Made by a program: the position numbers and the translations under genes. Below the pieces are notes generated by a model. It did not search any database, was not told where the DNA came from, and saw only the letters and a list, made by a program, of their open reading frames with translations. A stretch of DNA of 62,145 nt, filler included, from Pirum gemmata (lineage: Eukaryota): the NCBI GenBank assembly GCA_002812295.1. It is 10 parts of 10 records of this genome, joined end to end, with 100 filler letters (N's around TTAATTAATTAA, not from the genome) between each part and the next. Parts side by side here need not be neighbours in the genome. Positions count along the whole stretch, not along the records: positions 18,584 to 24,634 come from PDIN01000353.1; 9 more parts are not named here. The stretch is one strand, 5' to 3'. Each line of letters opens with the position of its first letter. The stretch's first letter is position 1. This document shows positions 4,928 through 62,145 of the stretch, piece by piece.

Positions 4928-6562
4928 TTGTACACATAATATCACGATAATTTTATAATTATCATAGTACCTACTACCTATGTAATCAAGAAAAGAAACG
5001 TTTTACATAATATTAAATAATATGTTATAATGGTTATGGTGAGCTTTATGGTGAAAAAAATAACAATTTTCATCCAGTATTCCCGAGAAATGTGCAAAAG
5101 CAACGATGTTCAAATGTTTGGTTTTAATAATATTTAAAAAATATGCTAATACTAGGCCTCAATTACTACTATTAATTATTACTATTTCTATTAATATTAA
5201 TACTATTATAACTCATACTGTCACTATCACTATCAATTATTATTACTATTACCATTGCTATTACTATTACTATTGTACTATCACTATGATATCATTATCA
5301 GTATCACTATTTTACTATTACTATTAATATTACTATTACTATTTATTAATTAATATTACTATTACTGTTACTATATTATTAATACTGTGACTATCACTGT
5401 TCTATTACTGTTACTGTTACTAATACTATCACTGTTACTATCACTACATACTACCATCACTATTATCATATTAGTTATTATTATTGTCGTATTATTACTG
5501 AATTATCTATTACTATTACTGTTATTATGAGCATTTTTATATATATGATACTATTACTTCTAATATTACTATACATTATAATACTATTACTTTATAAATT
5601 AGCATTATTATTATTATTATTATGTATTACTATTACTATTACTATTACTATTACTATTACTATTTCTACTATCATTAACATTACTATAATATTATATAAC
5701 CATTACTATAACTACCACTATGTAACTATTTTTATTTCTACTTTTTTTAAAATTTGCCCTTTGTAATTGCTATTTCTATTCTGATCGCTATTACTATTAC
5801 TGACAAAAAACGAAACAAATGAAAAGTGAAGAAATCCCAAAGGAGACCAAGCACTATTATTATGGCTTAATATGACATACATACATGTACAATAATTTGT
5901 AATAAACGATATTGATGTAATAAATTAAACCTTGTCAAAAATTGTTATCAGATAGACCCTATTATTATTTGTTATAAATGGTCTAGACTAATAGTAAGCA
6001 AATAAATAAAAAAAATCAAAAAAAAATAATAATTTTAAAAAAAATAATAATAATAATAATAATAATATGACAATAATAATAATATTTATACATATATTAA
6101 TATTACAATATCCCAAATTTTTTTGAAAAAAAAAACAANNNNNNNNNNNNNNNNNNNNNNNNNNNNNNNNNNNNNNNNNNNNTTAATTAATTAANNNNNN
6201 NNNNNNNNNNNNNNNNNNNNNNNNNNNNNNNNNNNNNNTTCGTTGTTATATAATTCGCATCATCAGTTATTTTCGCCATTCGCCATTTTTTCAGGAAAAA
6301 AATTATTATAATGGCAAAAATAACCGTTTTTTTGCTATATATATATATGGCAAGAGGGCTAAGATTATAATTCGAAATGACTATTTTTATAAAAATACCG
6401 ATCTGAATTATTTTTTGGGCTACATCACCAACCACTATCTAAAGCATGTGCAGCTTTGAAAATAAAAATAAAATTGAAATTAATGATTATTAGACCTATT
6501 ATGTTTTTTTGTGTTCACATGAGTGTGTGTGTAGTTCTCATGCTTATTGCAAACATGCAACT

Positions 6563-6756
6563 TATTGTGCTTTTTATTCGTTTTTGTCACTCTGAATAAT
6601 TATTTGGTGGATTATATAACCTTTAAATTGACATTTTATACGAATAAATAATAAAATATACCAAATTAAATTAAATGGACTTATATTGTTTTAATTTGGT
6701 ACTCTTTAGTGTATTATTGTATATTTCATGATACCAAAACAACTGAAAAGCACTAT
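6563..6756. mobile_element. MITE family A (~190-200 bp), the most abundant; copies ~11332-11534, 19965-20162, 22797-22968, 23348-23513, 44254-44451, 47870-47985, 48637-48805, 48915-49098, 59117-59310, 60047-60211
   Basis: Consensus TIR TA|TCGTGCTTTTCA...TGAAAAGCACGA|TA with conserved interior (GTCACTCTGAATATTTATTTGG, TACCAAATTAAATTAAATGGATTTATATTG, GATGACAAAACAACTG). TA flanks suggest a Tc1/mariner/IS630-type target. Confidence 0.88.
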
Positions 6757-7130
6757 ATATATCATGTTTTTCAATCCAGTTCAAAAACTGAAATAAACAT
6801 ACCAAATTATTATGGTTAAACTATAAACAAGTTCAATTATACACTTTAACAGTACCAAATTAAAGATTGGAGGACAACTGTAGACGATATGGCTAGAGTT
6901 CTTGTATATTTTATTTAAGAACCGAGGTTCCCAAAAATATATTTTTTAAAAAACCCGAATCGAGCTTTTTATAGCAGTCTGACTATCGATAGGAACAGAG
7001 CTAGCTAGTAGTAGTGGTTGGTGATCAAGCGCAAAATACCCGCACTACAAACTTATATACTGGCTGTAATCAAGAGTATAACTAATGTTCTAATCCACAT
7101 ATAATCTTTGGGGGATTTGAACCCTGGGGG

Positions 7131-7432
7131 TTTTTTTTTCTTCAAGTTTACCATGATGAGTTTACTCACTAGGAGGTTCACACTATCCGGCCTACCTTTC
7201 TCCTACCCATCCTGGGAGTAGGTCCTCACTTTCCCTTAACGCCTTAGGTTCTATGATTCATGAGATTAGAGCTCCTTATACGCTCGATTGCTGGGTAGGC
7301 TTCCTATTATTTATGTTCACCCATTGTTAGCTACATCTCCCTGTCATTCACCTACGGGACTCGAACCGCGACTTGAACCGCGACATTCGAGTTGGTTAAT
7401 CGGTGTGACAATCACGGGGCCACTATCCCTCC
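7131..7432 (-). mobile_element. tRNA-derived SINE, near full length (~300 bp)
   Basis: Minus strand has a Pol III A-box-like AGTGGCCCCGTGATT and B box GGTTCGAGTCCC (partly duplicated). The body GAGCTCTAATCTCATGAATCATAGAACCT is shared with three other copies, and there is an A-rich 3' tail. Confidence 0.8.
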
Positions 7433-7502
7433 TTTTTAGCGCTAGCTTGACGTAGCATTTTTGAAATGGGTCAAAAACTCCTGTTTCCAACAGTGTTCTT
7501 GA

Positions 7503-7689
7503 ATAAGTGGCCCTGTGGTTAACACACCGATTAACCAACCGTAATATCGCGGTTCGAATCCCATTGGTGGCGTCAAGGACATGTAGCTAGCAATGGGCGT
7601 ACTTCCTAACTATAAATAAAAAAGAGAAAACATTGCCAAACAAACGAGATTTTAAGTAAGAGCTCTAATCTCATGAATCATAGAACCTG
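7503..7689 (+). mobile_element. tRNA-derived SINE, 3'-truncated, head-to-head with the previous copy
   Basis: A box TGGCCCTGTGG (7508-7518), B box GGTTCGAATCC (7551-7561), then the same body. No tRNA acceptor stem is evident. Confidence 0.8.
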
Positions 7690-7890
7690 AGTTTTTTTCT
7701 CAGGATTAATTTTATTTTTTATTCAGAATAGTTTATATTAATAATTATAATTTATAAAATTATAAATTGTTAGTCGATTGTGACCAAGAAGTAATCGGTG
7801 GTCTATGGTTTCAATGATGACCGAGAAGTTGTCCTCGGTGGTGTATGGTATCGATTAAGACCGAGAAGTAGTTGTGGTTTTTTAAGCCAA

Positions 7891-8345
7891 ATGGATGGGT
7901 AGGTAGAAGGTGTGTGAATCTCACTGGGGGTAAACTTGAAAAAGCAAAAAAAACAAATAGAGGGAGGGATTGACCAACTCGAATGTTCGTCAAGGAGATG
8001 TAGACTACCAGTAAACATACCCAAACAATCTGTCGTATAAGGAGAAATAATCTCATGAATCATAGAACCTAAAGTTGTAAGGGAAAGTGAGGGTCCATCC
8101 CGAATGGATTGGTAGGTGGAGGGGTGAACACTGAACAGTGTGTGAACCTTTCAGGGAGTATTACTTACTTGAAAAAATAGAGGGGATAAACCAGCTCGAA
8201 TGTTGGTCAAGGAGATGTAGCTAACAATGGGTGAATATAAAAAAGAGAACACATGCCCAAACAATCGAGCGTATTTATATAAGGAGACCTAATCTCATGA
8301 ATCATGAAGAAGGCGGTACTGGGAAGTGGAGGAGGGTCCATCCCA
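7891..8345 (+). repeat. Head-to-tail array (~220 bp period) of SINE derivatives lacking A and B boxes
   Basis: Units start ATAGAGGG..GAT..ACCA.CTCGAATGTT.GTCAAGGAGATGTAG at ~7957 and ~8177, each preceded by the SINE 3' end ACTTGAAAAA. Confidence 0.7.
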
Positions 8346-9041
8346 ATTAAATTAATTGGAAATGGAAGGTAGTTTAGGCCAGCGGAGGAACATGCTTCAA
8401 AGGAGGGAAGGTAGGTGACAACGTCACTAGCTAGCTAGGTTGGATTGCGTGAACCCTTCGATCCGAACATTCGGTTGCCCTGGTCTAGCTAGCTAGCTAG
8501 CTAGAGTTAGCTAGCTAGAGTAACTAGACTACTACTAGCTAGCTACTAGCTAGCTAGTAGAAGTCGACAGGCACAGAGGTCCAGGGGCCTGGGTCTTCAC
8601 TGACTCTTTTCACCGACTCTTCAGCTACCGGTGCTGGTACTAATAGACCGTCTAGCTAGCTAGTCTAGCTAGCTAGAGTGTTGTAGTAGAACCCGGTCTA
8701 GACCTAGAAACGTAACTACCAAATTATTATTATGGTTAAACTATCAGACATGTTTTAATTTATTTGGTAGTTTATACTTAATATTGTATTTATAAATAAG
8801 TTCAAGTATACACTTAAACAGTACCAAATTAAAGATTGAGAGGGCAACTAATGTTTTTATCAGGTTCACTACTAGCTAGCTACTAGCTAGTAGCTATCGA
8901 TAGTATTTTTAAAATTAAATGGTATGATACACAAGGTTTTCCAGACTAGACCGAAACAGCCCAACCCTAAGAGTAGCTAGCTAGCTACTAGTAGAGGTAG
9001 TTGACTGGTCTAGCTATGATAGTTGTCTGCTTGTATACAGC

Positions 9042-9103
9042 TAGCTATCATAGCTAGTCTAGCTATCATAGCTAGTCTAGCTATCATAGCTAGACTATCG
9101 ATA
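9042..9103. other. Representative TA-[short spacer]-TA chain (putative stacked excision footprints); similar patches at ~30-130, 8480-8560, 11060-11190, 11690-11865, 12115-12180, 23510-23580, 29545-29710, 40335-40540, 53405-53515, 54650-54845, 55030-55115, 61315-61380
   Basis: Parses without remainder as TA.GC.TA.TCA.TA.GC.TA.GTC.TA...GC.TA.GAC.TA.TCGA.TA. Confidence 0.7.
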
Positions 9104-10423
9104 GCCAGCCCTAGTAGCTAGCTAGCTAGCTACTGTAGCTAGTTTTTAATAGTCTATAGACAGTTCTATAGACTATGATATCATTATTAGCACTAAGTCC
9201 TAGCTAGATTGCTCTACATATCATAATAATAAGTATTATGTCATACCGGTATGGAGACCGAATTAGACCCCTTTGGGGTTATTAGCTTTTATCATAGGGA
9301 TTATCAGTTTGTTAGACCTTCAAGCTCAGCCTTCAAGCTATGCATAAGTAGACCCTGTAAGTAGACCCCCGCCATAGGTCCCTACTCCCTATGGCTATCC
9401 CCCCTCTGGTATCATAACAAAAAATAATGAATTAGTCTATATAGAGTCTATATAGACCCCCGCCCGGTCTACTATTCATACCTAGCTAGGGTCTACTACT
9501 GGTCTACTACTATCTGATAGCTAGCTAGCTGAGGAAACGAAAGGAGAATATTACTACTCAATTTGACTTTTAAAATATTTTTTTTGAGCTTCAGTTAAAG
9601 ATTGAAACAACCTTTGGTCAACAATTACCTTTTCACCACATAAAGTAAAACATTTTTCCCTTCCAAGCATTTGTTGTGAAATTTTTTAAAGAAGACGTAC
9701 TTATTATGGTGGCAATCGTACTATTGTAAATTACGCTGATACTATTAATAATGAAGATAATAACAATAACAACAATTGTTTTTATATAATATTTCTTCTA
9801 ATGATCTCTCACGATTTCATAGTCTACCTACAGTCTACCTACCATCAAAAAGTCCTTCAAAATATGTACGATATAGAAAATTGAAAATTGAAGTAAAATC
9901 AACACGTGCGGCGTGCGGCGTGACTCCAAAAGTACTCCAAGTACTCCAGAAGTACTCCAAGTCCAAAGCACTCACTCGTAGTTCTACTGGATTTTTTTTT
10001 TGTCGGATAAAAATGGCGACATCCGCCAGCTCATCCGCCACATGAGTTCAAAAATCCAAAATCTCAAAATGCTCCGATTTTAATAAAAGTACTACCAATT
10101 TTTGAGAAATAATCTAACTAAGAAAACTCTATTATGAACCAATGATCAATTTTTAAAAATACTTTGGCTAGTTAGTATTAAAGATTTTTAGAAAAGAGGC
10201 CTTAATTAAAAAAAAAAGATTTCTAGACTACAGTTTTCTCTCTCTATACCCTAGTCTCTATACCTATGATGGTAACCTAGACCCCCGGTCTATCTAAATC
10301 TAAAGTCACTAGCTATCGATAGAACTTCAGCTAGCTAGACCACCTCATGACTGGCACCTTATGAAATACCTCATGTCAGAAAAAGAAAAAGAAAAAAAAA
10401 TCATATCGTATCATAATATTATG

Positions 10424-10488
<65 letters not shown>

Positions 10489-10821
10489 AGAGCAGAAATT
10501 GCTACAGAATTAATTGATTATCTAGACTATTTAGGCTCTATTGATCAAGAACAAACTGAACAGTCTCCCAGGAGTCAGGACTCTCCCTACGGTAATAATA
10601 GACTACAATTAGTCTATTTATTATATATATCGTTACACAGGTATTATCAGATAAATAATAAGTAGTCTAGAAATACTATCTGAAATATCATAGTAGACTA
10701 GTAGTTAGTCTATTATGATAATAATAATGGAATATTATTCACCAGACCTAATGATAATAATACCAATAATATCATTTATCCTCGATCATTCATAGTTATT
10801 ATCATATAATGTTACTTATAG

Positions 10822-10946
10822 CTAGGGTTAGGGTTAAGGTTAGGGTTAGGGTTAAAGTCAGGGTTAGGGTTAGGGTTAGGGTTAGGGTTAGGGTTAAGGT
10901 TAAGGTTAAGGTTAAGGTTAGGGTTAGGGTTAGGGTTAGGGTTAGT
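10822..10946 (+). repeat. Interstitial telomere-like tract (TTAGGG/TTAAGG)n; others at 22510-22599, 28020-28080, 30797-30857, 42316-42336, 45160-45305, 61383-61418
   Basis: Direct reading of TTAGGG/CCCTAA hexamer runs flanked by unique sequence. Confidence 0.92.
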
Positions 10947-12516
10947 TAGTAAAAAATAAAAATAAAAAAAAGCTGTTTTAGCACCAGAAAAAACTTGGCA
11001 AAAAGCAGTCAAAAAGCAGTCAAAAAGCAGTCAAAAAGCAGTCACCACAAAGAGACTATTTAGCTATCATAGCTACTATGATAGTATCGAGAGTATCGAT
11101 AGTATGATAGTAGGTAGTATCACAGGATTCACAGCTGGTTAGCTCTAGCTAGTCTCTAGCTAACTAGCTACTAGTAGCTACTACTAGTGGAGAGACCCCA
11201 GTCTACTCATGACTCATCGACAGCAATGATTCTTGCTTCTAATCCTTAAAACCCTAACCCTATGATATATACAGCTGTATCTACTAACCCCAACTATTAG
11301 ACTACTAGCTAGACTGAGCTAGTTAGCAGTCTATAGTGCTTTTCACTGCTTTTCAGTTATGATATTTTGTCATCGTAAAATATACAATAAATAGTACAAA
11401 ATTAATATAATAAAATCCATTTAATTTAATTTGGTATATTTTATTATCTATTTATTGATTTAAAAATGCCAATTTAAATATTATAACCCTCCAAATAAAT
11501 ATTCAGAGTGACAAAATAAATGAAAAGCACGATAGTGTAGGCTAGATAGTGTATCACTGTGTATGTAGCCCTGGTATGTAGCCTGTGTAGTCTAGCAGTA
11601 GGGTCTTAGTAGTGCTGCTTTGCTAGTCTACTGCTTTTTGCCAGGCTTTTTGCCGCAACAAATTGCTCTGTAGCTAACCACAGCTATGAATAGCTAGACT
11701 AGCTAGCCAGGAGGCAAGCTCCCTGGGTAACCTCCTGTAGCTAGCTGCTACTCTAGCTAGCTATCTAGCTAGCTAGTAGAACAGCTAGTAGAACCCCCCC
11801 CTAGCTACTAGCTAGTGGTCTCTCTATCTCTATCTAGCTATCTTATCTAGCTAGAGCTAGTCTATTTATAATCTACATTTATCTGTCATTTATAAAGACT
11901 GTCTATTTCATTATAGTTGTCCTCTCAATCTTTAATTTGGCACTGTTTAAGTGTATAATTGAACTTACATTAAATATAAAATACCAAATTAATTAAAAAA
12001 CATGACTGATAGTTTTTTAAAAAACCATAGACTAGTTTTTAAACTGGACAACACGATATGGTTGTATTCACTTTGTATTCTCTAGCTAGACTTCTATATT
12101 ATGAATTTATGATATGATAGTTAGTTAGCTACTAGCTAGCTAGCTAGTAGCTATGATAGACTATCGACTAAGACTATCGGTATCTGATACAGTCTACAGA
12201 CTACATTCCTAGAGTACGGTCTAGTCAGTAGGGGTGAGATGACGTCATTTTATTATTACCGAACAGCTGCCGGAACTTTTCCGTTTTTTATGGTTTTTAT
12301 TACTATTAANNNNNNNNNNNNNNNNNNNNNNNNNNNNNNNNNNNNNNNNNNNNTTAATTAATTAANNNNNNNNNNNNNNNNNNNNNNNNNNNNNNNNNNN
12401 NNNNNNNNNTCTCTCTCTCTCTCTACCACTACCACAGTAAATCCCATTTTTAATTAGAATTTTACGTTTATTAATTTATTATCATATATTATATATAATT
12501 AAGAATGTAAAAAAGC

Positions 12517-16686: not shown

Positions 16687-18480
16687 TTATGATAAATTGA
16701 AAATTTCATTCTGCCTTAAGTTTGCACTACTTAGAGCTATGCTTATACCATTGCTATGGGCTTGGTACCAACAACTATTTTTATAATATTTCCCACCATA
16801 CTGAAATATATCGGGAACTGAAGGTTTTACAATTATGGCACCAGGGTCCATTCGTTTTTGGTCTTCATAAGCCTGAAGTAAATGAGGTTGTACATGAACA
16901 TCTTGCATATGGAATCGTTGATGACATAGCAAACAAAACATGATTGTACTGGGTGTTGTGCTTTTATGACAATAAGAGCATTGTGATTTTGACTTATTAT
17001 TGATATAGTTGTTGGGTTCTTTCTCAGCACAACTAAACATGGGCACTCCCATACAGTTTTCACGTCTATCGCGTTCAAGTTGAATAGCTGCTACATCATT
17101 TTTATATCTTTTAGCAACTGAAAATTCATTACTGGATATTTTTCTAGGTGTCATTTTTGTAGGAGACAAGAAAAGGTTACTATGTGTAACAACTGTTTTA
17201 GGTTCGTGGTTTGCAGAAGTTTTATTCCTTTTCCTTGACAGTGTTACCTCTGGATCATTAGGGTTAGTATTAGTATTGTCTCTTGATAATACCGTGTTGA
17301 ACTCGGGAATTGGTAAGTTTAAAAGAAAGCGTTGATATCCACCTTTAGCTGTTGCATGGTCTCTTTTTTTTCTAAATTGAGATATTGACATTAAGTTATC
17401 AACATTTTTTATTTCGATAAATTGATTGACTGCATACATATTTCTCAACGCGAAACTCAAGTACTCCATAAATAAACGCATTGACACTGAATCGGCAATA
17501 GGCGAATAATCTCTTATCAATCTTGATAGAATATCTTCTCCTCCCATTGTTTTATTATATGCCACAACAACTGCTGGTTTCAACTTGAAAACATTTGATA
17601 TAAGCACCGGATGCTTGTTACATTCCATAGCTAAATTATAACACGAAAGAAGAGAATTCATATCAGGAAAGTTTTTCATTCTTCTATGATTGTTTTTTAT
17701 TAACCTTTTGCAAAATTGTTTTGTTTCTAGCGGCATGTCACGAGTGAGTAACCAAGGTAAAGATGTGTTGATTTCTTCCTTTGCAGCGTTAATAAAAGAA
17801 TCCAAAATTTCTGAAGTTGTTTGAATTTAAACTACTCTTATATTTTTTCCTTTTATGAAACCAACACATGTACCCATCACAACCATATGCTCAAGCAACT
17901 GAAGTCTATGTTTCTGACCAGGTAAAACTTTACTCAAGAGTTCACCACTATTCTCTTTGCTTAAATCAATTGTAACATACATACCGTATAGTTCTTTCAA
18001 GGTATTCTCTGCAGTTGTAGTTCCTACTGTACATCTTTTTTTCAATTCCAATACAAATAGTAATAAATCATCTACACTGATATCTGAAGATGGATCATAA
18101 TAACCAACCGCGATTGCTTTTTCAAGTTTTTGCTGATCTGGTTTATCTGATAAGTGACGCGTGTGCAATGGAAAGCTTTGTTTATATAACACTTTTGGTA
18201 TAAAAGTAGCTGCAGTTTTAGTCTTATTGACATAGGAACGTGAAAAGTAATCTGTTGCATTCAACCACACTTTGAAGTCAGTAAGACCATTTGCTATTTC
18301 CTCCTCTGTGTAATTTTTTTTACAAGCTGAAGGTCATTTTTATCGAAATACGCTTCTGAAGACTATTGTATTCCTTGCAAAGATTTAAAAACAAAATCAC
18401 AAGATTGTACTTGGGTGTGCTTTTTTAATTGAGGATAAAAGGCATAAACTAATCCTATTATGAAAGAAATTAACATTTTA
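16687..18480 (-). pseudogene. Decayed piggyBac-like transposase (C-terminal part), 5'-truncated by the contig end
   Basis: ORFs 17827-18270 and 16687-17805 are in the same frame, split by one TAA (IRVV*IQTTSEILDSF), with a frameshift near 18335. KPAVVVAYNKTMGGED matches the piggyBac P..V..YN..MGGVD third-Asp motif. The C-terminal CSYC...CLLC...CW..H resembles the piggyBac Cys-rich domain. Confidence 0.65.
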
Positions 18481-19046: not shown

Positions 19047-19661
19047 TCAGCAGTTACCTACAGTATAAAAATCATAAGTTTTCCCGCTTGCCAGTTCGGT
19101 TTCTTGGTGGCCATTTTGATATAAAGAACACCTCGCTGCAGTACCCCACATGAACCCAACACAAGGATCGTTGAATTTACACTGTTCAAAGCAGTCGTCT
19201 ACACTATTAACAAATCTTAAATCAACAAGTTTATTAGCTTGATAGTATTGAAATCCACTCATATCACCTTGGTGAGAGATTCTCCAGGAATATTCGTTAG
19301 CGTATTTAGTTTTACATTTTTGGTTAACGTGAGGAGGAGGAGTTGGACATGATGTCATAGTGTAGACGTTATAAGTTTTGCCACTTGCAATTTTTTCATT
19401 GCTTCCTTGTTGAAATAATTCACAACGACCAGGAGTACCCCATAAGTAAGCCACGCAAGGTGCATTGAATTTACATTGTTCAAAACAATCGTTTTCTGAT
19501 TTAACATTAGCATTACTGATGACTGCTAACTTATTAACAGACAAGTAGTTAAAACCGGCCATACTTCCTCGATGATCAAGTTGCCATTTGTATTCATTAG
19601 GGTACAATTGTTTGCATCGGTTGTCTACGGCTGCACCAGAAACGGTAGAAAATACTTTCAT
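19047..19661 (-). CDS. Protein with two tandem PAN/apple-like domains (probably secreted; a 5' exon may be missing)
   Basis: Two ~90-aa repeats, each with six Cys and the core DCFEQCKFN.PCV...WGT..RC.L, joined by PTPPP. The N-terminus looks like an incomplete signal peptide. Confidence 0.8.
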   Translation of the reverse strand: MKVFSTVSGAAVDNRCKQLYPNEYKWQLDHRGSMAGFNYLSVNKLAVISNANVKSENDCFEQCKFNAPCVAYLWGTPGRCELFQQGSNEKIASGKTYNVYTMTSCPTPPPHVNQKCKTKYANEYSWRISHQGDMSGFQYYQANKLVDLRFVNSVDDCFEQCKFNDPCVGFMWGTAARCSLYQNGHQETELASGKTYDFYTVGNC

Positions 19662-20218
19662 TATTTTTTTTTTAAAAGTTTTTTCTTTTTTTTTTTTTTT
19701 TGCGATGTAGGTAATAATTATTAAAAAATATTATTTTGTAAATTATATTTTTTCAGTTATTATTGTGATTATTATGTTTTATTTTTATTTTATTTTTTTA
19801 AAATTATTTTTGTTTTTCACTCTAGTTTATATACTATTATTTCCGTCATTATTATTATTTTCATTCGTTACTCCGATTTATACATATTAGTATTGAAAGC
19901 CTCTGTAAGAGACCCTATAAGTAGAGTTATGATCGTATTTACAATTTTACAGTGTATTAGTCTTTATGTGCTTTTCTTTTATTTTGGTCACTCTGAACAT
20001 TTGCTTGGTAGAGTATAATCTTTAAATTGATATTTTTAAATGAATAAATAGGTAATCAAGTATAGCAAATTAAATTAAATGGGTTTATATTGTATTAAAA
20101 TTTGGTAGCCTTTAGTAGTATATTAAAAATGATGACCAAAACAACTTTTAAAAAAAAGCACCAGTCTCATTTGTCTATATAAAAATCTATACAAATATTT
20201 ATTGTGATAAGAAAAAAC

Positions 20219-20454: not shown

Positions 20455-23400
20455 GAAAAAACTTGGCATTGGTCAAGTATTTCAAAAGAAAACCCTGAGA
20501 GCTCCTATCATAAACCTATCATAAACTACTCTCTAGCTAAACACTGCTAAACTAAAAATCTAGTAGCAAACAATCTAAAAACGTTCTACTTTTTTTTACT
20601 AATTATTAAAAGTTCCATTTTTTTTTTCATATTCGAAAATTTCAAATCTATTTATTAAATACTAATTACGTTGCTTAATTAATGTTCAAAAAAAACTAAA
20701 CATTCTAGTGAAACCCAAAAGTCAGACAGACGTTTTTACATTGTTTGCACCATAATAGTAGCCATGGGCAAAAAAAAAAAATCGAGTCTACAATAATAAT
20801 AATAATAATGACAACTATCAATATAACAAATATAATTATATTATAATAACTTATAATTATGTATTATTGATATTATTATTATTATTATTCTTGCTTATTG
20901 AAAAATTGGAAGACGAAAATCTGAAGAGGTAGACCATGATACAAAACTATAGACTATATAATATTATCGATATTATTCATCATTATGATGTATTATTAAC
21001 CAAATTAATTCCATAATACATCGTTATGATGTATATAATATTAAGATTCTGCCACTATGATAATTATCATACAGTCTTGTAACTTATTCTTTTGTATAAT
21101 TACTTTAATTTATTAAATAGATCTTTTAATTGGTTTTTTCATTTGCTATCACATTAATATTACTATATTAATATTATTGTTGTTATTATTGTTGCTATTT
21201 ATCACTATCATTTTCTTTATTGCTAATGTTTTATTATCTATTATTACTATATAACTGATCTAGAAGGAGTCAATAGAATATGAAAATTTGTTGATTTAAT
21301 TAACCATTTAACCATGCATTATTTCTTGCAATTTTTTTAAAAAGCACAACTACTACCAAACACTACCAAACTATTTCAAACTACGCTAGTACTGTAAGTA
21401 TTACAAACTGTGATAATGAATAATATTAAAAAGATACAATAATGCATGATAATATCATACAACGTTACAATAACCTGTTTAGGATGGATTGTAACGATCG
21501 GATAGACAGTTCGATAGACTATAAAATGATTCGCATTTCAAATTTTATGATTTTAAAAAAAAGTTTTTTTTTAAAAAAAAGTTAGTTGTCAACTAAGACT
21601 CAACTTGACACAATGTCATTGACTCTGGTGACCCCCCCATCAGCAATCATCCCACTCACAATCCATATATGTATATATATATGAGTTCACTCTTCCATGA
21701 GTTCACTAACCCCACTATACTTCCGCTATGTTCACTATGCCAAAAAACAAAATTCCATTGTTTCTAAATCGCCCAATTAAAATGCAAAAAATGGAAATGA
21801 AATTCTGAAAACCAAAGAATCAGATGAATCAGACTAGCTCTAGCTAGAGGAGTAAGAAGGGCTATCCCCTGGTAGTTCCTTTAAAAGGAAAAAACGGATC
21901 GGACTGGTTCGGGGTGACTCACAACTATTTTTTTTTTTTAAATATTGTATCGATAGAAGCTGTAATGTTCAACAACAGTTACTGTAGAACTCTTTTTATA
22001 CCGTCCATTTTATTGCAGTTGTCCTCTCAATCTTTGTTTTGGCACTGGTTAAATGTATAATTGAACTTGTTTATAAAATACAGCATTAATTATAAAATAC
22101 CAAATTAATTAAAAAATGTCCAATAGTTTAACCATAATAATAATCTGGTATGTTTAAATTTATTTCAGTCATAATACAATCGATCATACTTTTAATGAGA
22201 CTAACTCTTGAATGAAATTTTGAGTGATTGTATGTATACTTTTTTAAGTATCTATGTAGTCTATGTCTACATACTACTAATTTCAAAACTCGGCAGTAGT
22301 AGAGTGAGTGGTCCGTGACGCCAGTATTACCCCAAGAGCCATTTTTTTTTCGATAATAAACAAACGTTAATAAAAAAAAATGAACATAATAATATATAAT
22401 TATAAATATATCATAAGAAAAAAGAAATTTTATATATACATAGGGCCACAGTCACATGGTATGGGCGGCGGTCTGCTAAAAATACTGACCAAAATATATA
22501 ACCTATATCTAACCCTAACCCTAACCCTAACCCTAACCCTATCCCAACCCTAACCCTAACCCTAACCCTAACCCTAACCCTAACCCTAACCCTAACCCTC
22601 TATTTCATTACAGTTGTCCTCTCAATCTTTAATTTGGTACTGTTTAAGTTTATTTGCGCCTGTTTATAAATACAATATTAATTATAAAATACCAATTTAA
22701 TAAAAACATACCCGATATATAGCTTAACCATAATAACAATTTGGTACGTTTATTCAACTTTTTGAACTGGACAACACTATTGAAAAACACGATGCATCGT
22801 GCTTTTCATTTATTTTGGTCACTCTGAATATTTATTTGGTTGGTTATAATATTTAAGTTGGCATTTTTAAATGAATAAATAGATTATAAAATATACCAAA
22901 TTAAATTAAATGGATTTATATTATATTAATTTGGTACTCTTTATTGTTTATTTTATGATGACAAAAAAACTAACGCCCGGACTAAGCCTAGCTAGCTAGC
23001 GGACTAAGCTGCCTGTGAAGGCAAAGTGAGTGCAAACTTGCAAAGTGTCACTGGTGTCACTAGCAAAGTGTCAAGTGAAAAAAATCAATAAAGAGCCAAT
23101 CACCGGGCTACTAAAAAAAAATAACCAAATCGAGAAGCTGAAAGACAAAACATTTTTTGGCTTTTTTTTATTGGCTATTCTACAATCTCTACTTGACCCT
23201 CGAGCTCGATCAGAGGCTCGATCTTCTCGGCTCGATCTTCTTTTCGTTTGTAAACAAGATAATCTTTTGGCTTTTTTGAGCCCCCCGCCCCAGACTAAGA
23301 TAGAGCGGGGGAGTGGANGGGGAGTGGAGAGATAGGCTAGAGAACCATATCATTTATTTTGTTACTCGGAATATTTATTTGGAGGATTATAATCTTTAAA

Positions 23401-24011
23401 TTGACATTTTTAAATCAATAAATAGATAATAAAATATACCTAATTAAATTAAATGGATTTATATTGTATTAATTTGGTACTATTTGGTACAAAATAACTT
23501 GAAAAGCACGATAGCTACTACTAGCTAGAGAGACTATGATACTAGCTACTCTAGTAGAACACTAGCTAGTCTATCATATTGAAAAACACGATAGGTAAAG
23601 TTGTAGCTACAACGTTAATTAACTATCATACTTTAGTTAGTTAGTAACCCTTCCGGTCAAATAGACTACAGCTTCGAATACCCCCTACCTACCTACCCCT
23701 CGACGTTAATTTCCGGTCAAATACCACCTACCTACCTACCCCTTGACGTGACGTATTATTTGAACGCTCCCATAGTTAGACTATCGATACATAAAATTTT
23801 TTTATGGAATGATCTGTAGGAAAAGGCATACAATTTTTATATTTCGAAACTTATCGAACATAAGTAATTTAGTTGTATTTTATAGATTTGAAATGTTCAA
23901 ACCTTTTAAAAAAAAAGTGGGGCTTTAGTAAAAAAAAGTAGAACGTTTTTAGTTTTTTTGCACCATAATAAAAGAGTCTAGCTAGCTAGTTGAACCTACT
24001 ACTAGTACCAA

Positions 24012-24150
24012 GACTTTCGCTCATTATCTCCATTGTTGTTGCAATTATAAATGAAGATAACGATGATTATTATAAGTATAGGCATGTCCTATATAGTTGC
24101 TTTAATAAACATATTAATAGTAACAATAACAATGGAGATATGAGAAAGTC
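24012..24150. mobile_element. 139-bp TIR element with GAC...GTC termini
   Basis: Left end GACTTTCGCTCATTATCTCCATTGTTGTTG; right end (reverse complement) GACTTTCTCATATCTCCATTGTTATTG. The right end is followed by TA. Confidence 0.7.
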
Positions 24151-43611: not shown

Positions 43612-44646
43612 ATATGATACCAAAATCAACACCAATGGATCATCGAATCGAACTTTCATTTTTCTTGATTTTTGTGGATCTAGAGTGCCTTTNNNNNNNN
43701 NNNNNNNNNNNNNNNNNNNNNNNNNNNNNNNNNNNNTTAATTAATTAANNNNNNNNNNNNNNNNNNNNNNNNNNNNNNNNNNNNNNNNNNNNTTAGGTTT
43801 TGAGACTCCGCTCTAAACCAAGGAGCCACATTTACCCCGATATAATAATATATAAATTATTTATATCATTATTTTTATAGTATTTTTTATATATTTATTT
43901 TTTTAAAAATTTATCATAATATTATTATTATATATCGATAAATTGTTATTACTATTATTAGACTATATCCTGTAAATAATTATTTTTATTATTCAAATCG
44001 ATAGTACTAGTTCAATTACAGTAACTGTTGTCCTCTCAATCTTTAATTCGGTACTGTTGAAGTGTATAATTGAACTTGTTTATAAAATACAACAATAAAG
44101 TATAAAATACCAAATTAATTAAAACATGTCTAATAGTTTAATCATAATAAGAATTTGGTACGTTTATTTCAGTTTTTGAACTGAACAAATCGGTCTACTA
44201 CTAGTGACCCGGGTAGTCTAGCTACTAGCTAGCTAGCTAGTAGTAGTAGTCTATTATTGTGCTTTTCATTTATTTTGTCACTCCGAATATTTATTTGGTT
44301 GTTTATAATATTTAAATTGATACTTTTAAATAATATATATATTATAATAAAACATACCAAATTAAATGAAATGGGTTTATATTATATTAATTTGGTACTA
44401 TTTATGGTATATTTTATAGACGATAAAATATGATAACTGAAAAGCACGATAGACTAGCTAGCTAGTAGGTAGGTAGCTAGGTGCTGTAGTTTCCGGTCAA
44501 ATACAGCTTCAAATACCCCTATCTACCTCCCCTCGACGTTAATTTTCAGTCAAATACCACCTACCTACCTGCCCCTTGACGTTACGTATTATTTGAATGC
44601 TCCCTATTCAGCAAACGAAATCTGACGATATCTGACGATAGACTAA

Positions 44647-44914
44647 GGGAGCGTTCAATAATTACGTAACGCCGATTTGGGACAAAAACCTACCCTACTA
44701 CCCCCCATGTAACGGCCTGTCACGTTTGAGAAGGACTACCTACCCCTTATGANNNNNNNNNNNNNNNNNNNNNNNNNNNNNNNNNNNNNNNNNNNNNNNN
44801 NNNNNNNNNNNNNNNNNNNNNNNNNNCCTACCCCCCCTACTGTGTCACGGCCTGTCACAAAAATCCGACCCCCCCTACCTACCCCCCAGCGTTACGTAAT
44901 TATTGAACGCTCCC
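44647..44914. mobile_element. PIF/Harbinger MITE, sister family H2 (spans an N gap)
   Basis: Perfect 26-bp TIR GGGAGCGTTCAATAATTACGTAACGC with TAA TSD on both sides. The interior differs from H1. Confidence 0.88.
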
Positions 44915-45975
44915 TAACACACGAAAATACACTGAAAATACTATGAAAATTGACGAATTCTCTTTCATCAATTCGAGTTTCAGTGTTATTAGATCGAACA
45001 ATTGAGATCGGAGGGTTTAGATTGTTCTAGTCAGTATTTATTTATAAATAATATCTAACTCGAAAACCGAACAAAGGGCTGTGTCTGTAACTGTTATATT
45101 ATCTGATACAAATAATATTATATAATAAAAAGTATGAGTTTTAATATATTATAAGAACCGGGTTAAAGTTAGGGTTAGGGTTAGGGTTAAGGTTTAATAG
45201 GGTTAAGGTTAGAGGGTTAGGGTTAGGGTTAGGGTTAAGGTTGGGGTTGGGGTTAGGGTTGGGGTTAGGGTTAGGGTTAGGGTTAGGGTTAGGGTTAGGG
45301 TTAGGTAGAAGCTCTTGTATTACCGTAATATTATTACCAAAATTTATTTTTACTTTATTGTATAGTCTAAAGAGTCTCAAGAGTTATAGTTTATTTTAAC
45401 CTCGAACGCGAACGCAGACTTGTTATCACGGGAGCCACTTGGTCTCAAGAGTTATAGTTTATTTTAACCTTGGGTAGTAGGTATGGTGTGGTTATCTATT
45501 TTAATTATCAAAATTATCCAAATATAATTAATATTATATGATAATATTATAAATGGACTTGTGGTTTTGGGTATTTTTGGGTCCACCTCCCTCCCTATTT
45601 TTATATAGACTATCTATAGTAATATCGTAGTTTCTGACAATATTAAAATAGACAAATTTGACAAATCACTACTAAATTACTATTATTGTTGATATATTCG
45701 TCATTGTTATGATAATAATTTTGTTGTTGTTGACATGGTCACATGGTTGCATGTAGGTTTTTCACTTCTTGTATTGGTTAACTTTATAAGTTTTGTTGTA
45801 TGTTGTTTGTTTATTATGTCTGTAAAAAATGAAAGTAAAAATTTTAATATAGCTAATTGATTATTACACATATAATATCAATAAATGCACTTCGGTGTAG
45901 TTTAGGTTGTTGTTGTTGTTGTTGTGGTGGTGGTGGTGGTGGTGGTGGTGGTGGTGGTGGTGGTGGTGGTGGTAG

Positions 45976-46006
<31 letters not shown>

Positions 46007-47994
46007 GGTAGTGGTAGTGGTGATGGTGATGGTGGTGGTGGTGATGGTGATGGTGGTGGTGGGTTGTTGTTGTTGTTGTTGGACAACACTATTGAAAAAC
46101 ACGATAATAATATCATAATAAAACTATCATACTCTTTCGATATTTAATATGACCATACTTTTCAGGGACTCTACAACTCACTACTACAACTCACGCAACT
46201 ACTGCTAGCTTGAATTTTTTTTTGGCTCGGTTCGAATCGGCAGAAATAATCATTACCGAACATATGTGTCCTCGCACTTTGACTTGAACGAACGCAGCAC
46301 CTCAGAACGCTGAACGCTCCCTGGATCTTTTTTGTTTTTTTTTATCATATTAGAATAGTAGGGGTGAGATATCTACTGGAACTTTTTTCGAACAGATGCT
46401 TATCGAGTCAACCTTAGTTCCATGTTTCTTACTAATAATAGTATTTAAATAGCTTAAAATAGTAAATTTAATTATAGTAGATACCAATTAAAGTAAAGAT
46501 ATTAATATTAATAGTAATAAAACCATAAAAATCGGAAAAGTTCTGGCAGCTGCTCGATAATAATAAAATGACGTCATCTCACCCCTACTATTAGAATATA
46601 TTATTAAGACTACATTACAAAAATAATTATTTTTTAAATTTTTGCTAGAAAATTTTTGATTTATTTATGATAAAAAAAAAAAAAATCGATACATCATGAA
46701 AGTCAAAGGCCCCAGGAAAAAAAGAAATGACAGAGCTGTGACAGCTCTATTAGTTGAAAAAAATACCCTGAAATTGTCGCCCAAATTTTAACCAAAATAA
46801 GACAATTTCTTCGTAATTTCTATATATGGTTACATTGTGCTACTTAATTAAGTATCTATCAGCCATCATTCTTTTGAGCTGGCCATGTGGGGCGAATTTT
46901 GAAGGTATGTTTACAAAATAATGGAGTGACATACCACACTCATACCACATACCTGATGTATTATTGGCATTATTGAAGTATTATTGACATATACTGTATA
47001 CATTATAAAATTTGTAATGATGTTTATGTTACAGAGTATATTTGAGATATTTCGTATGCTATCTCAAATTGGGCTGAGAATGGTTGACCAGATAAGAAAC
47101 AAATCAAACTCAACACTATATTCGGAGTGACAAAATAAATGAAATGCACAATATTGATATCAGATATCATAAATACAAATCGTTATGATAACTACTTTAG
47201 CTTACTTTAGCTTCTAAAGTAGACTAGCTAGTAGCTAGTCAGTAGGAAAAAAAGTGGAAACCCAATTTTTTTTTTTATTTTTATTTTTTTTTTTTTTTTT
47301 TTTGTAGACTAGTCTATGAGTGAAATAATTATTATCATAATTATTATGATAAATTTTATTAATAAATGAGGGCTAGAAAGAAAATGAGGGCACTCCAAAA
47401 ATACCATATTAAGGTAAACAGCTTTCCATTTAAGGTAAAACTGTACCCATCAGAGGATTAGGCAAAAATGAGTGACCCAAAAGTTGGGCCGAAACTTTTT
47501 TTTTTAGGATTTTTTCTGTTGAAAAAAAAAGTAATAATAATTTTTAAAAAAAAATAAATAAGTCCTATCATTGGCCTCTCTTGAGCGGTTACAAATACCC
47601 TCCTATATAAAAAAAGGCTATAATAGTCTCATTTATATAAATAAGGTAAAAAAACCCCTCAACCACAAAAATTAACTTTTTTATACTTTTTTTATTTTTT
47701 TCTAGAACAAGAAGAAAAAAAAGCAAAAATTTATAAAGTGACAACCTTAGCTCATCCAAACTTTATTGGTGTCTTTTTACCTAAAAAAGAACTATTTGCC
47801 AAATAAGTAGTATTTTACAATTTTACAATTATTACTGTAGTAATAGTACCGGTATACCGTATGGGTGCATTCCGAATGTTTATTTGTTTGGTTATAATTT
47901 TTTAATTGACATTTTTAAATGAATAAATGGATAATAAAATATACCAAATTAAATAAAATGATGACAAAACAACTGAAAAGCACTAGCATTTTCC

Positions 47995-48230: not shown

Positions 48231-50100
48231 CATTTTCCAAATGTGTATAACATTAACAATTTGTATCACTTTGCCCTCGCCGAGATCTAGTGTATAACAC
48301 ATGTGTATAATAATATAATACATCATTATGAATTTATGATGTCTACAGCTGATGTCTACAGAATATTATATTTTAAAAATTATAAATTATTTATAATAGA
48401 ATACTTATATGATAGAATCTTGTACTCGAATCTTGTTTACAAGCCTAACTTGTATGACACGACTTACCCACAACTCATTTATCGATAATGTGCGTTTTAA
48501 AAAATTATTGCTATCTGATATGATAATATCATACTATACAATTTTTTAATTAATTATTTTAAAAGACTTCAGTTTTTAATTATTTTAACCCCGTTTGGTT
48601 TGTTTCCGTTTTGAGAGTTCGATTAAAAAATAATATTATTGTGCTTTTCAGTTGTTTTGTCATCATAAAATATACAATAAACAGTACTAAATTAATACAA
48701 TATGAACCATTTAATTTAATTTGGTATTTATTTATTTAAAAAAATGTCTATATTATAACCCTCCAAATAAACATTCTGAGTGACAAAATAAATGAAAAGC
48801 ACGATAAAAAAAACTCGATTCAACAAAAGATGGATTTTAGACTAAGACTTTAGCACAAAGAACCCATTTTATGATAGCTACTAAGCTAGCTAGCTAGAGT
48901 CTAGCTAGCACCACTATCGTGCTTCTCATTTATTTTATCACTCTGAATATTTATCTGGAGTGTTATAATATTTAAATTGATATTTTTAAGTTTATACATA
49001 TATAGCTAATAAAATATATCAAATTAAATTAAATGGATTTGTATTACTAACCCTATTGTATATTAAATTTTTATGATGACAAAACAACTGAAAAGCACCA
49101 CCAGTTAGTCTAGTAATATATCGATAATGATAGTAGACCTCTATCGATACAATCAACTAGACACTCTACAGACTCTATGCATGCCCACATGTTATAATAA
49201 ATATGATATCAAAATTTGATATATCGATATTATAGACTATATATTATACTTTGTTTATATAGTCTAAAAGACTCCATTTCTTTTTTCTGGGGTCTTTGAG
49301 ACTTTGCTAGATGGGGGTATTCAGAACTTATTGATTAGCTTTTTAATTTTTTTTAAAAAATATCCGGAAAGTCACATGATGCATAAACATAGCTATAAAT
49401 ATCGAGTTTAACTATTAAAATTTTAACTTTGATAACGCTCTTTCAAAAAAAAAAAAAAAATGACATTTATTATTTAACCCCTCTAACCCCTCTATATATA
49501 AACCTTTGCCCTCTAACCCAAGCTATTATTTTTGAATACCTGCAATTTATCGTCCTCTAATTTGATAGTCTACTGTGAACTCTTTTTTTAAAAAAAGTGT
49601 ATAATCGAACTTGTTTATATAAATACAATAGTAATACAATATTAATTATAAAATACCAAAATAATTAAAACATGCTTGAGCAGCTTGACAGACCTTGACA
49701 GACCTTGACAGACTCCAATAATAACATATATGACAGGTCTAGGGCCTATACCGCAGGCCCCGCCCCACCCACAAGAACAACAATAATAATTATAATAATA
49801 ATAATAATAATAATAATCAACATAATAATGATAATAATAACANNNNNNNNNNNNNNNNNNNNNNNNNNNNNNNNNNNNNNNNNNNNTTAATTAATTAANN
49901 NNNNNNNNNNNNNNNNNNNNNNNNNNNNNNNNNNNNNNNNNNTAATATTAATAATAATAATAATAATTAATAATTAATAATAATAATAATCATTTATTAT
50001 ATTATATAATATAACGTTTTTTATAACTAATACCAACATTACTCAAACTAAATAATTTTGTATAAAATATTATTATCAATAATTTTAAAATACTAAAAAC

Positions 50101-60636: not shown

Positions 60637-61472
60637 TCTACGAGGCTTCTCTCTGAATATGGGTACTCATGAAATGGAAACTCTCCAGTTTAGTAGACCT
60701 CTGTGATATTTTTATGTTCACGTCAACCAGTAGTGCTGTTGCTTTGAATCTCTTTAATTTTGCACATTTCAATTGGATTAAAACTGTTCTACTAGCACCA
60801 ATTATTGACAACGAAGGAAAAAATATTGCGAATTTTGAGTATGATTGCAAGAAATCCACTACGCTCGAAAAAAAAATTACTACAAAAAAAAAATCCCGAA
60901 AAAAAATCATATATGAGAATAATACTAACAATTTGCTAGTTAGTACTTTATTTTACAATTAAATTTTTACATCTTTTATGTTTAGAATTGATTCAGTTTG
61001 ATGGAACATTATCGAGCTAAAACACAAAAGCTTTCGCAATTTCCCTTGCGCAGTTTGCTTCTTCAACGAGCTCTCCAGTGCGAAACCCTGAAAAAATATC
61101 GACTTCGTTCATATTTATGACTTTTTGGCCAGAGCCATTTCATTTATAAATGGCATGATTGAATTTTGTAAAAAATAATTAGCTCTCATTTTCTTTATAA
61201 TTTCTCCACCAGTGAGTAAAGGAAGAAATAAATGTGACGTAAATTACTCTACATTTACAGCCTCTACTAGCTGTGCTAGGTCAATCATTAGTCCAATCAT
61301 TAGTCTATAGATGGGTTCTAGCTAGTCTACTATTAGCTATGATAGCTAGCTAGACTAGCTCCAGTAGTCTAACTATCTGACCAACCCTAACCCTAACCCT
61401 AACCCTAACCCTAACCCTACATTGCTACTACAAGTCTACGTACATAACTGATACAAACTTCATACATATGAC

Positions 61473-61601
61473 ATACAAGTCTACTAGTTATTGATAGCTA
61501 GCTAGTAGTCTATGATACTACAGTAGCTTAGTACATGGAAATACAAGTCTACTAGTTATTGATAGCTAGTCTATGATACTACAGTAGCTTAGTGCATGGA
61601 A
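61473..61601. repeat. Tandem duplication (68 bp and 61 bp copies) differing by a 7-bp TA-motif indel
   Basis: ATACAAGTCTACTAGTTATTGATAGCTA[GCTAGTA]GTCTATGATACTACAGTAGCTTAGT(A/G)CATGGAA. Confidence 0.9.
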
Positions 61602-62145
61602 ACTTTGCAGGAAACTTTGCCTAGCTAGCTAGCTAGCTACTAGTAGGGAAACTTTACTGAGAAACTTTAGTTGGGGACTTTAGGAGACTTTATGGCTAGA
61701 AAGAAAGTTTTATAATTCCAGAAATTCAGGAAACCCATAAATGAGCAGAAATGATTGGGTTATATAATCGCAAAGGTGGCAAAGACTCAAACTGAAGCTT
61801 ATACTTCTAGGTAAAATAAATTCGATTTTTTTTCAATAATTGCTTTTTTTAAAACTTTTTTTTTTTTTTAAAAAAAATCATTGGTGAATTTCTGATCATT
61901 AATTTATTTTTTTTAAAAAAAATTTGAGTAATTATTTATCCGTACCCGTCCGTACCAAATGTTGAAATTTTGAATGAGGAAAAAACATTTTGAAATCCGC
62001 GTTACCGCAGAATTTAGTCCTGAGTCAGGAGGGGTGAGAACTCTTATGGCGAACTTTTTTGACCGAGGCACAAAGTAAATGTTGTTCGCCTGTTTAGCCT
62101 TACCATATTTAGTATTTGTAATTATTTATTTAGTAACTACCTATT

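What the first reader, a model, noticed from the sequence alone, without database searches (positions are those of the whole stretch)
23558..23593. Intergenic DNA apparently built from stacked transposon excision footprints: one TA expanded to TA-GC-TA-GTC-TA-TCA-TA
Seen: the family-B end reads AACAC-TA-TTGAAAAACACGATA at ~22773, ~29500 and ~46085, but here reads AACAC-TAGCTAGTCTATCATA-TTGAAAAACACGATA. The single TA has gained three TA-terminated units. The same small vocabulary (spacers G/C, GC, GAC/GTC, TCA/TGA, TCGA, TCAGA/TCTGA, TCCGA, GAGTC/GACTC, GACC/GGTC, CAG/CTG, CCG/CGG, mostly as reverse-complement pairs) makes up dozens of patches in most contigs and is absent from the coding exons. 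Established: Tc1/mariner-type excision leaves TA + a few element-terminal bases + TA (e.g. Sleeping Beauty TACAGTA). Inference: repeated insertion and excision at the same TA doubles the target each cycle, giving self-amplifying hotspots whose scars act as an ordered log of past transposition. I know of no description of footprints forming a bulk genome component, but could not search the literature.
Basis: partly seen in the sequence, partly recalled or inferred. Interest (0 to 1): 0.92.

Follow-up and report, generated by a model that had tools for sequence, protein, structure and literature searches.

The report
Mixed transposon scars in TA hotspots
In this single-celled relative of animals, a few fixed 5-7-base words are inserted at TA sites and cluster in short patches of non-coding DNA; they are likely scars left by cut-and-paste jumping genes, make up about 2-4% of the non-coding DNA examined rather than its bulk, and cannot record the order of events.

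Summary
The string at 23558-23593 is real, but only 5 bases tie its left side to family B, so this site is weak proof. The general pattern is solid. In 52.5 kb of non-coding DNA, TA-X-TA with X = GAC/GTC (91), TCA/TGA (118), TCGA (17) or TCAGA/TCTGA (11) is 3.5-13 times above local shuffles, almost never tandem, and near 1:1 in both orientations. Four insertions into repeat copies add exactly X+TA at a TA. Family B is a TA-flanked element whose ends begin TCG, which fits TCGA. Best reading: repair scars of Tc1/mariner-type excision (0.65). Corrections: the commonest unit, GC, is mostly tandem (158 of 224) and may be slippage; CAG/CTG and CCG/CGG are not enriched; units cover about 4% of non-coding DNA; clustering is regional, not specific to the doubled TA; a stack cannot record order. 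No source transposase and no occupied/scar/empty allele trio were found. The organism is an ichthyosporean near Abeoforma. This scan has noted similar TA scar words in other genomes (unchecked notes). New variant of a known kind; interest 0.45.

The parts
23558..23593 (+). Flagged string: 5-base anchor, three TA-terminated units (GC, GTC, TCA), then a family-B1-type end
   Evidence: anchor is short and upstream DNA is not family B
23512..23578 (.). TA-word patch between a B2 end and the B1-type end remnant
23350..23513 (+). Family B2 copy (TA-flanked non-autonomous element with terminal inverted repeats); carries the single-TA form of the sub-terminal site
23662..23668 (+). Cleanest case: TA-GAC-TA inside a family C copy (23646-23773); 5 of 5 other window copies have one TA
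   Evidence: 5 letters left out in 6 contigs of X1, and single-TA consensus in X1, X2 and X3 loose ends
10224..10230 (+). TA-GAC-TA inside a family E copy; 2 of 4 other copies show the single TA, 2 are mutated there
44429..44435 (+). TA-TGA-TA at the sub-terminal site of a B2 copy
11358..11364 (-). TA-TCA-TA at the same homologous site in another B2 copy, the mirror form
9042..9103 (.). Longest mixed run, 13 units; partly an 18-base tandem repeat of units
9453..9471 (.). TA-GACC...GGTC-TA mini-remnant (others at 5953, 10278, 29795): likely both tips of an element whose ends begin GACC
   Evidence: 5 inward pairs vs 0.03 in shuffles, 1 outward
29332..29521 (+). Complete family B1 copy, both ends reading TA|TCGT, followed by a patch
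22773..22794 (+). Family B1 end with a single TA after AACAC (also 29500 and 46085)
61464..61604 (+). Local two-copy duplication whose copies differ by 7 bases, one GC unit and one G unit, both tandem

Best explanation
The fixed words inserted at TA sites (GAC/GTC, TCA/TGA, TCGA, TCAGA/TCTGA) are likely end-joining scars left when two or three families of TA-targeting Tc1/mariner-type transposons excised, and they gather in regional hotspots, often beside family-B ends. Shown: enrichment, non-tandem nature, 1:1 mirror forms, insertion at TA in repeat copies, clustering, and a TA-flanked element family. Inferred: excision leaves 3-base overhangs from the element tips; two GAC or two TCA overhangs pair around one central mismatch and give GAC/GTC or TCA/TGA; a one-base overlap gives TCAGA/TCTGA and GACTC/GAGTC; two TCG overhangs, as at family-B ends, pair through CG and give TCGA. 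The GC, G and C units are likely mixed: some may be trimmed GAC scars, while most (TAGC)n and (TAG)n growth is likely tandem duplication of a CTAG or TAG already present, which then supplies more TA targets.
For: Enrichment 3.5-13 times, above all 60 shuffles. Tandem context in only 1 of 91 GAC/GTC, 0 of 17 TCGA, 15 of 118 TCA/TGA and 1 of 11 TCAGA/TCTGA. Neighbouring asymmetric units have random orientation: 7 same vs 11 opposite for GAC/GTC and 15 vs 15 for TCA/TGA within 40 nt. Only two of the possible mirror-type 3-mers are enriched, so this is not a general palindrome effect. Of 24 short insertions (3-7 nt, counted by hand, two of them end artefacts), 4 make one of the four 3-base words; a tandem-duplication null gives 0.013 per event, P(4 or more of 24) = 3e-4. 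One site is confirmed against other genomic copies. Of 30 listed family-B ends, 13 read TA|TCGT, 4 TA|TTGT and 2 TA|TAGT with unrelated flanks; 143 records of X1 diverge just after the B1 end. Inward GACC...GGTC remnants: 5 vs 0.03. Units are enriched within 40 nt of B ends: 40 of 144 TA vs 420 of 6,224. Canonical scars are the first or last 2-4 element bases between two TAs (PMC6943129, passages).
Against: No Tc1/mariner transposase among 7 long and 148 of 152 shorter reading frames; the only transposase-like gene resembles piggyBac. No full element beginning TA|GAC or TA|TCA was found. No occupied, scarred and empty alleles of one locus were seen. The TCA and TGA insertions in B2 may be one event plus a later base change; at 2 events P = 0.04. 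For the family E case an inverted copy of the inserted bases lies about 17 nt upstream in other copies, which fits a fold-back origin. About half of GAC/GTC and two thirds of TCA/TGA have a direct or inverted look-alike within 30 nt (no baseline computed). 20 of 24 short insertions in repeats are of other kinds. In rice only 8 of 94 excisions were clean (PMC4423477, passages), so uniform scars need unusually tidy repair. The B-end list was drawn up by me and includes the flagged site.
Confidence: 0.62

Rival explanations
1. Everything is a degenerate (TAGC)n/(TAG)n microsatellite growing by slippage, with point mutations making the other words.
For: 158 of 224 GC units are tandem; GC-only runs sit in C-TA-G context in 40 of 112 cases against 2.8% of background TA; G and C neighbours share orientation, 71 vs 40; the copies at 61464-61604 differ by tandem units only. 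GC can also arise from or give GAC by one base: both occur at one homologous site in the 7200-8350 repeats.
Against: GAC/GTC, TCA/TGA and TCGA are almost never tandem, 247 of 326 runs are single units, and the insertions at 23662 and 10224 are not copies of their flanks. 66 GC units are non-tandem vs 35 expected. This rival accounts for much of GC, G and C, not for the rest.
Confidence: 0.12
2. The words are templated insertions made by fold-back or template switching during break repair at TA sites, with no transposon ends involved.
For: All enriched words are near-palindromes; 15 of 42 GAC and 17 of 49 GTC units have an inverted look-alike within 30 nt; the family E site has a possible inverted template.
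Against: No nearby template for 43 of 91 GAC/GTC, 39 of 118 TCA/TGA, 13 of 17 TCGA and 10 of 11 TCAGA/TCTGA. Templating should copy varied flanks, yet the vocabulary is a handful of fixed words, and other near-palindromes (CAG/CTG, GCC/GGC, GATC) are not enriched.
Confidence: 0.13
3. The words are selected protein-binding or chromatin motifs that arise by ordinary mutation and are kept in non-coding DNA, as argued for TACATGTA in Phytophthora.
For: Nearly absent from coding DNA and clustered; such a reading was preferred for an abundant footprint-like motif in PMC3520976 (passages).
Against: They appear as whole 5-base insertions inside single transposon copies, cluster at element ends, and are densest in contigs where I found no gene (20.8 per kb in 6239-12309) while sparse in two gene-bearing contigs (1.3-1.4 per kb). 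Later use as motifs is not excluded.
Confidence: 0.06
4. A mobile system other than Tc1/mariner (another TA-duplicating or CTAG-duplicating transposase) makes the scars.
For: No Tc1/mariner gene was found, while the window holds piggyBac-like, hAT-like and TWA-flanked elements. Keeping both copies of a CTAG target would give a GC unit.
Against: The piggyBac-like element ends at TTAA; families C and D duplicate other targets; mirror pairs with a central mismatch are the Tc1/mariner pattern.
Confidence: 0.07

Closest known systems
Canonical Sleeping Beauty excision footprint, TACAGTA/TACTGTA (PMC6943129, passages); ZB leaves 0-3 bases (PMC7913693, passages)
   Same: TA on both sides, a 3-base core, two mirror forms that differ at the middle base
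   Different: Cores are GAC/GTC and TCA/TGA, plus TCGA and 5-base forms; hundreds per 50 kb of natural DNA, mixed in patches; source enzyme not found. CAG/CTG itself is not enriched here.
Tc1 taCATGta footprint, raised and dismissed for the abundant TACATGTA motif of Phytophthora (PMC3520976, passages)
   Same: A TA-bounded palindromic word abundant in non-coding DNA; TCGA here has the same 2+2 shape
   Different: That paper took abundance as evidence against footprints; here insertion at TA is shown in repeat copies
Genome-wide excision scars of DNA transposons in rice (PMC4423477, passages)
   Same: Excision as a source of non-coding sequence in a genome rich in non-autonomous elements
   Different: Rice scars are varied (8 of 94 clean, deletions and filler common) and counted in the tens; here a few fixed words recur and cluster
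Mos1 mariner 3-base footprint (TCA/TGA-type; recalled from memory, no call confirms it)
   Same: The same core as the TCA/TGA class
   Different: No mariner element with a TCA tip was found in the window
(AGCT)n / (TAG)n microsatellites
   Same: Describes most GC, G and C units
   Different: Does not describe the non-tandem 3-5-base words

Membership tests
Tc1/mariner end-joining excision footprint | One TA at the empty site, two TAs around the core at the scar | tested here: met
   4 sites in repeat families; one confirmed in other genomic copies
Tc1/mariner end-joining excision footprint | Two mirror forms in about equal numbers, differing at the central base | tested here: met
   GAC 42 / GTC 49, TCA 60 / TGA 58, TCAGA 5 / TCTGA 6; random orientation of neighbours
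Tc1/mariner end-joining excision footprint | Core equals the first or last 2-4 bases of a TA-flanked element of the same genome | tested here: inconclusive
   TCGA fits family-B tips (13 of 30 ends TA|TCGT); GAC fits only mini-remnants; no TCA-tipped element found
Tc1/mariner end-joining excision footprint | A cognate Tc1/mariner transposase in the genome | tested here: inconclusive
   None in the window; no whole genome held
Tc1/mariner end-joining excision footprint | Occupied, scarred and empty alleles at one locus, or scars seen after induced excision | tested here: inconclusive
   Only short contigs were available; no such alleles among the rows shown, with patchy cover of unique DNA
Slippage microsatellite | New unit is a tandem copy of adjacent sequence | tested here: not met
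   Not met for GAC/GTC (1 of 91), TCGA (0 of 17), TCA/TGA (15 of 118); met for most GC (158 of 224)
Templated insertion by fold-back or template switch | Direct or inverted template within tens of bases | tested here: inconclusive
   Absent for 43 of 91 GAC/GTC, 39 of 118 TCA/TGA, 13 of 17 TCGA; present for the rest, no baseline computed
   Non-GC unit after a unit: 0.095 at lags 1, 2 and 3, and 0.067 at lag 50, base 0.034; GC after GC falls from 0.31 to 0.06

The most novel reading that the evidence does not exclude
All units, GC included, are scars of three or more co-existing TA-targeting families; one family prefers C-TA-G, a target that its own GC scar doubles, so excision scars seed and feed a (TAGC)n microsatellite class that keeps attracting other transposons and has written about 4% of this organism's non-coding DNA from nothing.
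Probability: 0.25. Interest if true: 0.75.

Novelty: new variant of a known kind. Interest (0 to 1): 0.45.

Why it matters
Excision scars are usually treated as rare by-products. Here likely scars reach roughly one per 280 non-coding bases even without the GC class (about 190 above chance in 52.5 kb). They would be a countable record of past jumps by families whose intact copies may be rare, their letters would predict the tips of elements not yet found (GAC, TCA), and they offer a route from transposition to microsatellites. They also warn motif-finding studies that an abundant TA-bounded palindrome may be a scar, the reading that PMC3520976 set aside because of abundance. Eight searches returned no paper whose listing describes scars as an abundant genome component; the library covers open-access papers only.

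Tried and rejected
Whole genome: none held. A family C motif found nothing in metagenome or viral contigs; a shorter motif gave 108 matches in prokaryote genomes, one per locus in unrelated organisms among the 80 listed, treated as chance and not used. The piggyBac-like protein had no confirmed relative in metagenome contigs. No RNA holder listed. Laying X1 and X2 on 53300-55135 to catch allelic indels showed none at unit sites, but unique DNA was patchily covered (24 of 30 bins in X1, 15 in X2) and the tool skipped 54542-54698, so this says nothing on heterozygosity. Inverted-repeat and cross-contig searches found no full element with GAC or TCA tips. Rfam: 0 matches. CpG decay of TCGA to TCAA/TTGA: 7 vs 4.2 and 11 vs 5.1, within the shuffle range, not counted as support. 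A 2-base-overhang model for the GA family was rejected because GATC is absent (0) and GA/TC are depleted. RIP-like mutation was rejected because it does not insert bases and would remove the CA in TCA; CA/TG is 0.94 of expectation. One Pfam row under its cut-off for a 55-residue frame at 23990-24154 was taken as chance. Summed depth over families B and C is about four orders above unique flanks, but the tool warns that this is no copy number, so none is claimed.

Full report
Setting. The window is ten unrelated contigs of about 6 kb joined by N-padded linkers. No genome is held. The enolase at 51272-52501 is 83-84% identical to two proteins labelled Awhi in EukProt, a label I read as Abeoforma whisleri, and 89% to an unnamed JGI protein, so the organism is likely an ichthyosporean near Abeoforma; the species is not determined. 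A paper on such genomes reports AT-rich, repeat-rich, fragmented assemblies and does not mention this pattern in the passages and two supplement parts I saw (PMC5560861; part 1 of 2 and part 1 of 72).

The flagged site. The letters are as described. But in the three comparison copies AACAC continues upstream into the family-B body, whereas at 23558 it follows a patch of the same words. The anchor is 5 bases, and AACACTA occurs 16 times in the masked window. Reading the site as one TA expanded by three units is plausible but not shown. No matching deletion was among the 12 indel rows displayed (77 not shown).

The vocabulary. After masking genes and linkers (52.5-52.7 kb), TA-X-TA counts were compared with Markov expectations and with 60 dinucleotide shuffles in 100- and 300-base blocks. 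Enriched: GC 224 vs 49, GAC 42 vs 8, GTC 49 vs 9, TCA 60 vs 16, TGA 58 vs 17, TCGA 17 vs 1.3, TCAGA 5 vs 0.4, TCTGA 6 vs 0.6. CAG/CTG, CCG/CGG and GGTC are not enriched; GACC, GAGTC/GACTC and TCCGA are too few to judge. Coding DNA has 7 units on 705 TA sites. Removing all 465 core units removes 2,148 bases, 4.1% of non-coding DNA; without GC, 241 units and 1,252 bases. A run from a second study holds one patch letter for letter over 125 bases, so the patches are not assembly errors.

Two classes. GC is tandem in 158 of 224 cases, and non-tandem G and C are at chance level; GC-only runs sit in C-TA-G context in 40 of 112 cases against 2.8% background; a recent local duplication differs by tandem GC and G units. 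This class fits slippage, or duplication of a CTAG target, though 66 non-tandem GC units exceed the 35 expected. The other words are different: tandem in 1 of 91, 15 of 118, 0 of 17 and 1 of 11 cases, and random in orientation among neighbours.

They are insertions at TA. Alignments of seven repeat families give four cases: GAC at 23662 in family C (single TA in 5 of 5 other copies; 5 letters left out in 6 contigs of run X1, and the single-TA form in loose-end consensus from X1, X2 and X3); GAC at 10224 in family E (2 of 4 other copies clearly empty); TGA at 44429 and TCA at 11358 at one homologous site of family B2, where 1 of the other 8 copies has a single TA and 7 have CA, GA or AA. These are 4 of 24 short insertions by my hand count. 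A tandem-duplication null makes such a word with probability 0.013, so P is 3e-4 for four events and 0.04 for two. The two B2 cases may share an origin, and the E case has a possible inverted template. Most short insertions in these repeats are of other kinds.

Mechanism. Tc1/mariner transposases leave 3' overhangs, and end joining gives scars equal to the first or last 2-4 element bases between two TAs, for example TACAGTA/TACTGTA (PMC6943129, passages). By inference, GAC and TCA overhangs give the two mirror pairs, a one-base overlap gives the 5-base forms, and TCG overhangs pair through CG to give TCGA. Family B is a TA-flanked element: 13 of 30 listed ends read TA|TCGT, 4 TA|TTGT and 2 TA|TAGT, and flanks diverge at that point in 143 records. 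Five inward TA-GACC...GGTC-TA remnants against 0.03 expected point to a GACC-tipped family, although regional clustering of both tips inflates this. No full GAC- or TCA-tipped element and no Tc1/mariner gene were found. TCA/TGA could also come from trimmed family-B ends; the data do not decide.

Stacking. Runs number 247, 48, 19 and 12 for 1, 2, 3 and 4 or more units, far above a uniform doubling model (310, 15, 0.8). Yet non-GC units are no more frequent at the adjacent TA than two or three TAs away (0.095 each), and remain raised fifty TAs away (0.067 vs 0.034 base). Hotspots are therefore regional. Units are enriched within 40 bases of B ends (40 of 144 TA vs 420 of 6,224) and C ends (10 of 45), not clearly D ends (1 of 29 at 40 bases, 9 of 49 at 80). 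Local hopping, reported for ZB and other elements (PMC7913693, passages), is one likely cause; tolerance of insertions far from genes is another. A stack cannot be an ordered log, since any order of insertion gives the same string.

Known work. Single scars are textbook. Rice comparisons show varied scars, 8 of 94 clean (PMC4423477, passages). A Phytophthora study considered and dismissed a footprint origin for an abundant TACATGTA motif (PMC3520976, passages). Eight searches found no listing that treats scars as an abundant genome component; sought mariner footprint papers and the organism. This scan's earlier notes report similar TA-bounded words in diatom-like, protist and animal genomes, one with a source element said to be found; I did not check them and do not count them as support.

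Verdict. Observation partly confirmed, interpretation partly supported. Likely Tc1/mariner-type scars (0.62) mixed with tandem growth of TAGC, in regional hotspots, covering 2-4% of the non-coding DNA examined. New variant of a known kind; interest 0.45.

Noticed in passing
window, 10 segments (e.g. linker 6139-6238): The window is ten separate contigs of about 6 kb joined by N-padded linkers with stops in all frames; neighbours across linkers are unrelated.
   Followed up: yes
window:16687-18333 (-): PiggyBac-like transposase (Atlas look-alikes carry DDE_Tnp_1_7, scores 0.91-0.94, recognition just under the tool's threshold; no Pfam hit under 0.001), broken by an in-frame stop at 17827-17829, with a TTAA-flanked end near 16300.
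   Followed up: partly
window:40701-40853, 29851-30027, 38428-38585, 44646-44917: Family C and a relative: short elements with GGGAGCG tips flanked by TWA, as in Harbinger or Zator elements (labels recalled); very high depth in run X1.
   Followed up: partly
window:20218-20456 and 46357-46593: Family D: about 240 bases, tips CAG...CTG in one copy and TAG...CTA in the other, each with a 6-base target duplication; hAT-like by recall.
   Followed up: partly
window:6560-6890, 22598-22972, 44015-44451, 48630-49103: B1 and B2 elements sit next to each other in varying orientation, often with a word patch between them, as if B inserts at the TA of an earlier B end.
   Followed up: partly
window:7200-8350: Four related copies of about 100-150 bases in direct and inverted order; one homologous site reads TA-GAC-TA in one copy and TA-GC-TA in the others.
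   Followed up: partly
window:12505-12620: Near-perfect palindrome with arms of about 55 bases, each holding a TA run; possibly a fold-back element.
   Followed up: no
window:10823-10945, 22509-22599, 45160-45305, 61385-61420: Internal TTAGGG-type arrays, several beside family-B copies or patches.
   Followed up: no
window:56163-58355, 51272-53030, 50089-50952, 33683-35750, 19047-19730: Genes: ClpB/Hsp104-type chaperone in one frame, enolase with an AAT-rich intron, GATA zinc-finger protein, forkhead-domain exon beside a long Asn-rich frame, two-repeat PAN-domain protein.
   Followed up: partly
literature, PMC2874221: This review prints the Sleeping Beauty footprint as TAG(T/A)CTA, which equals the GAC/GTC word here, while PMC6943129 gives TACAGTA/TACTGTA; I treat the first as a likely misprint and draw nothing from it.
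   Followed up: yes
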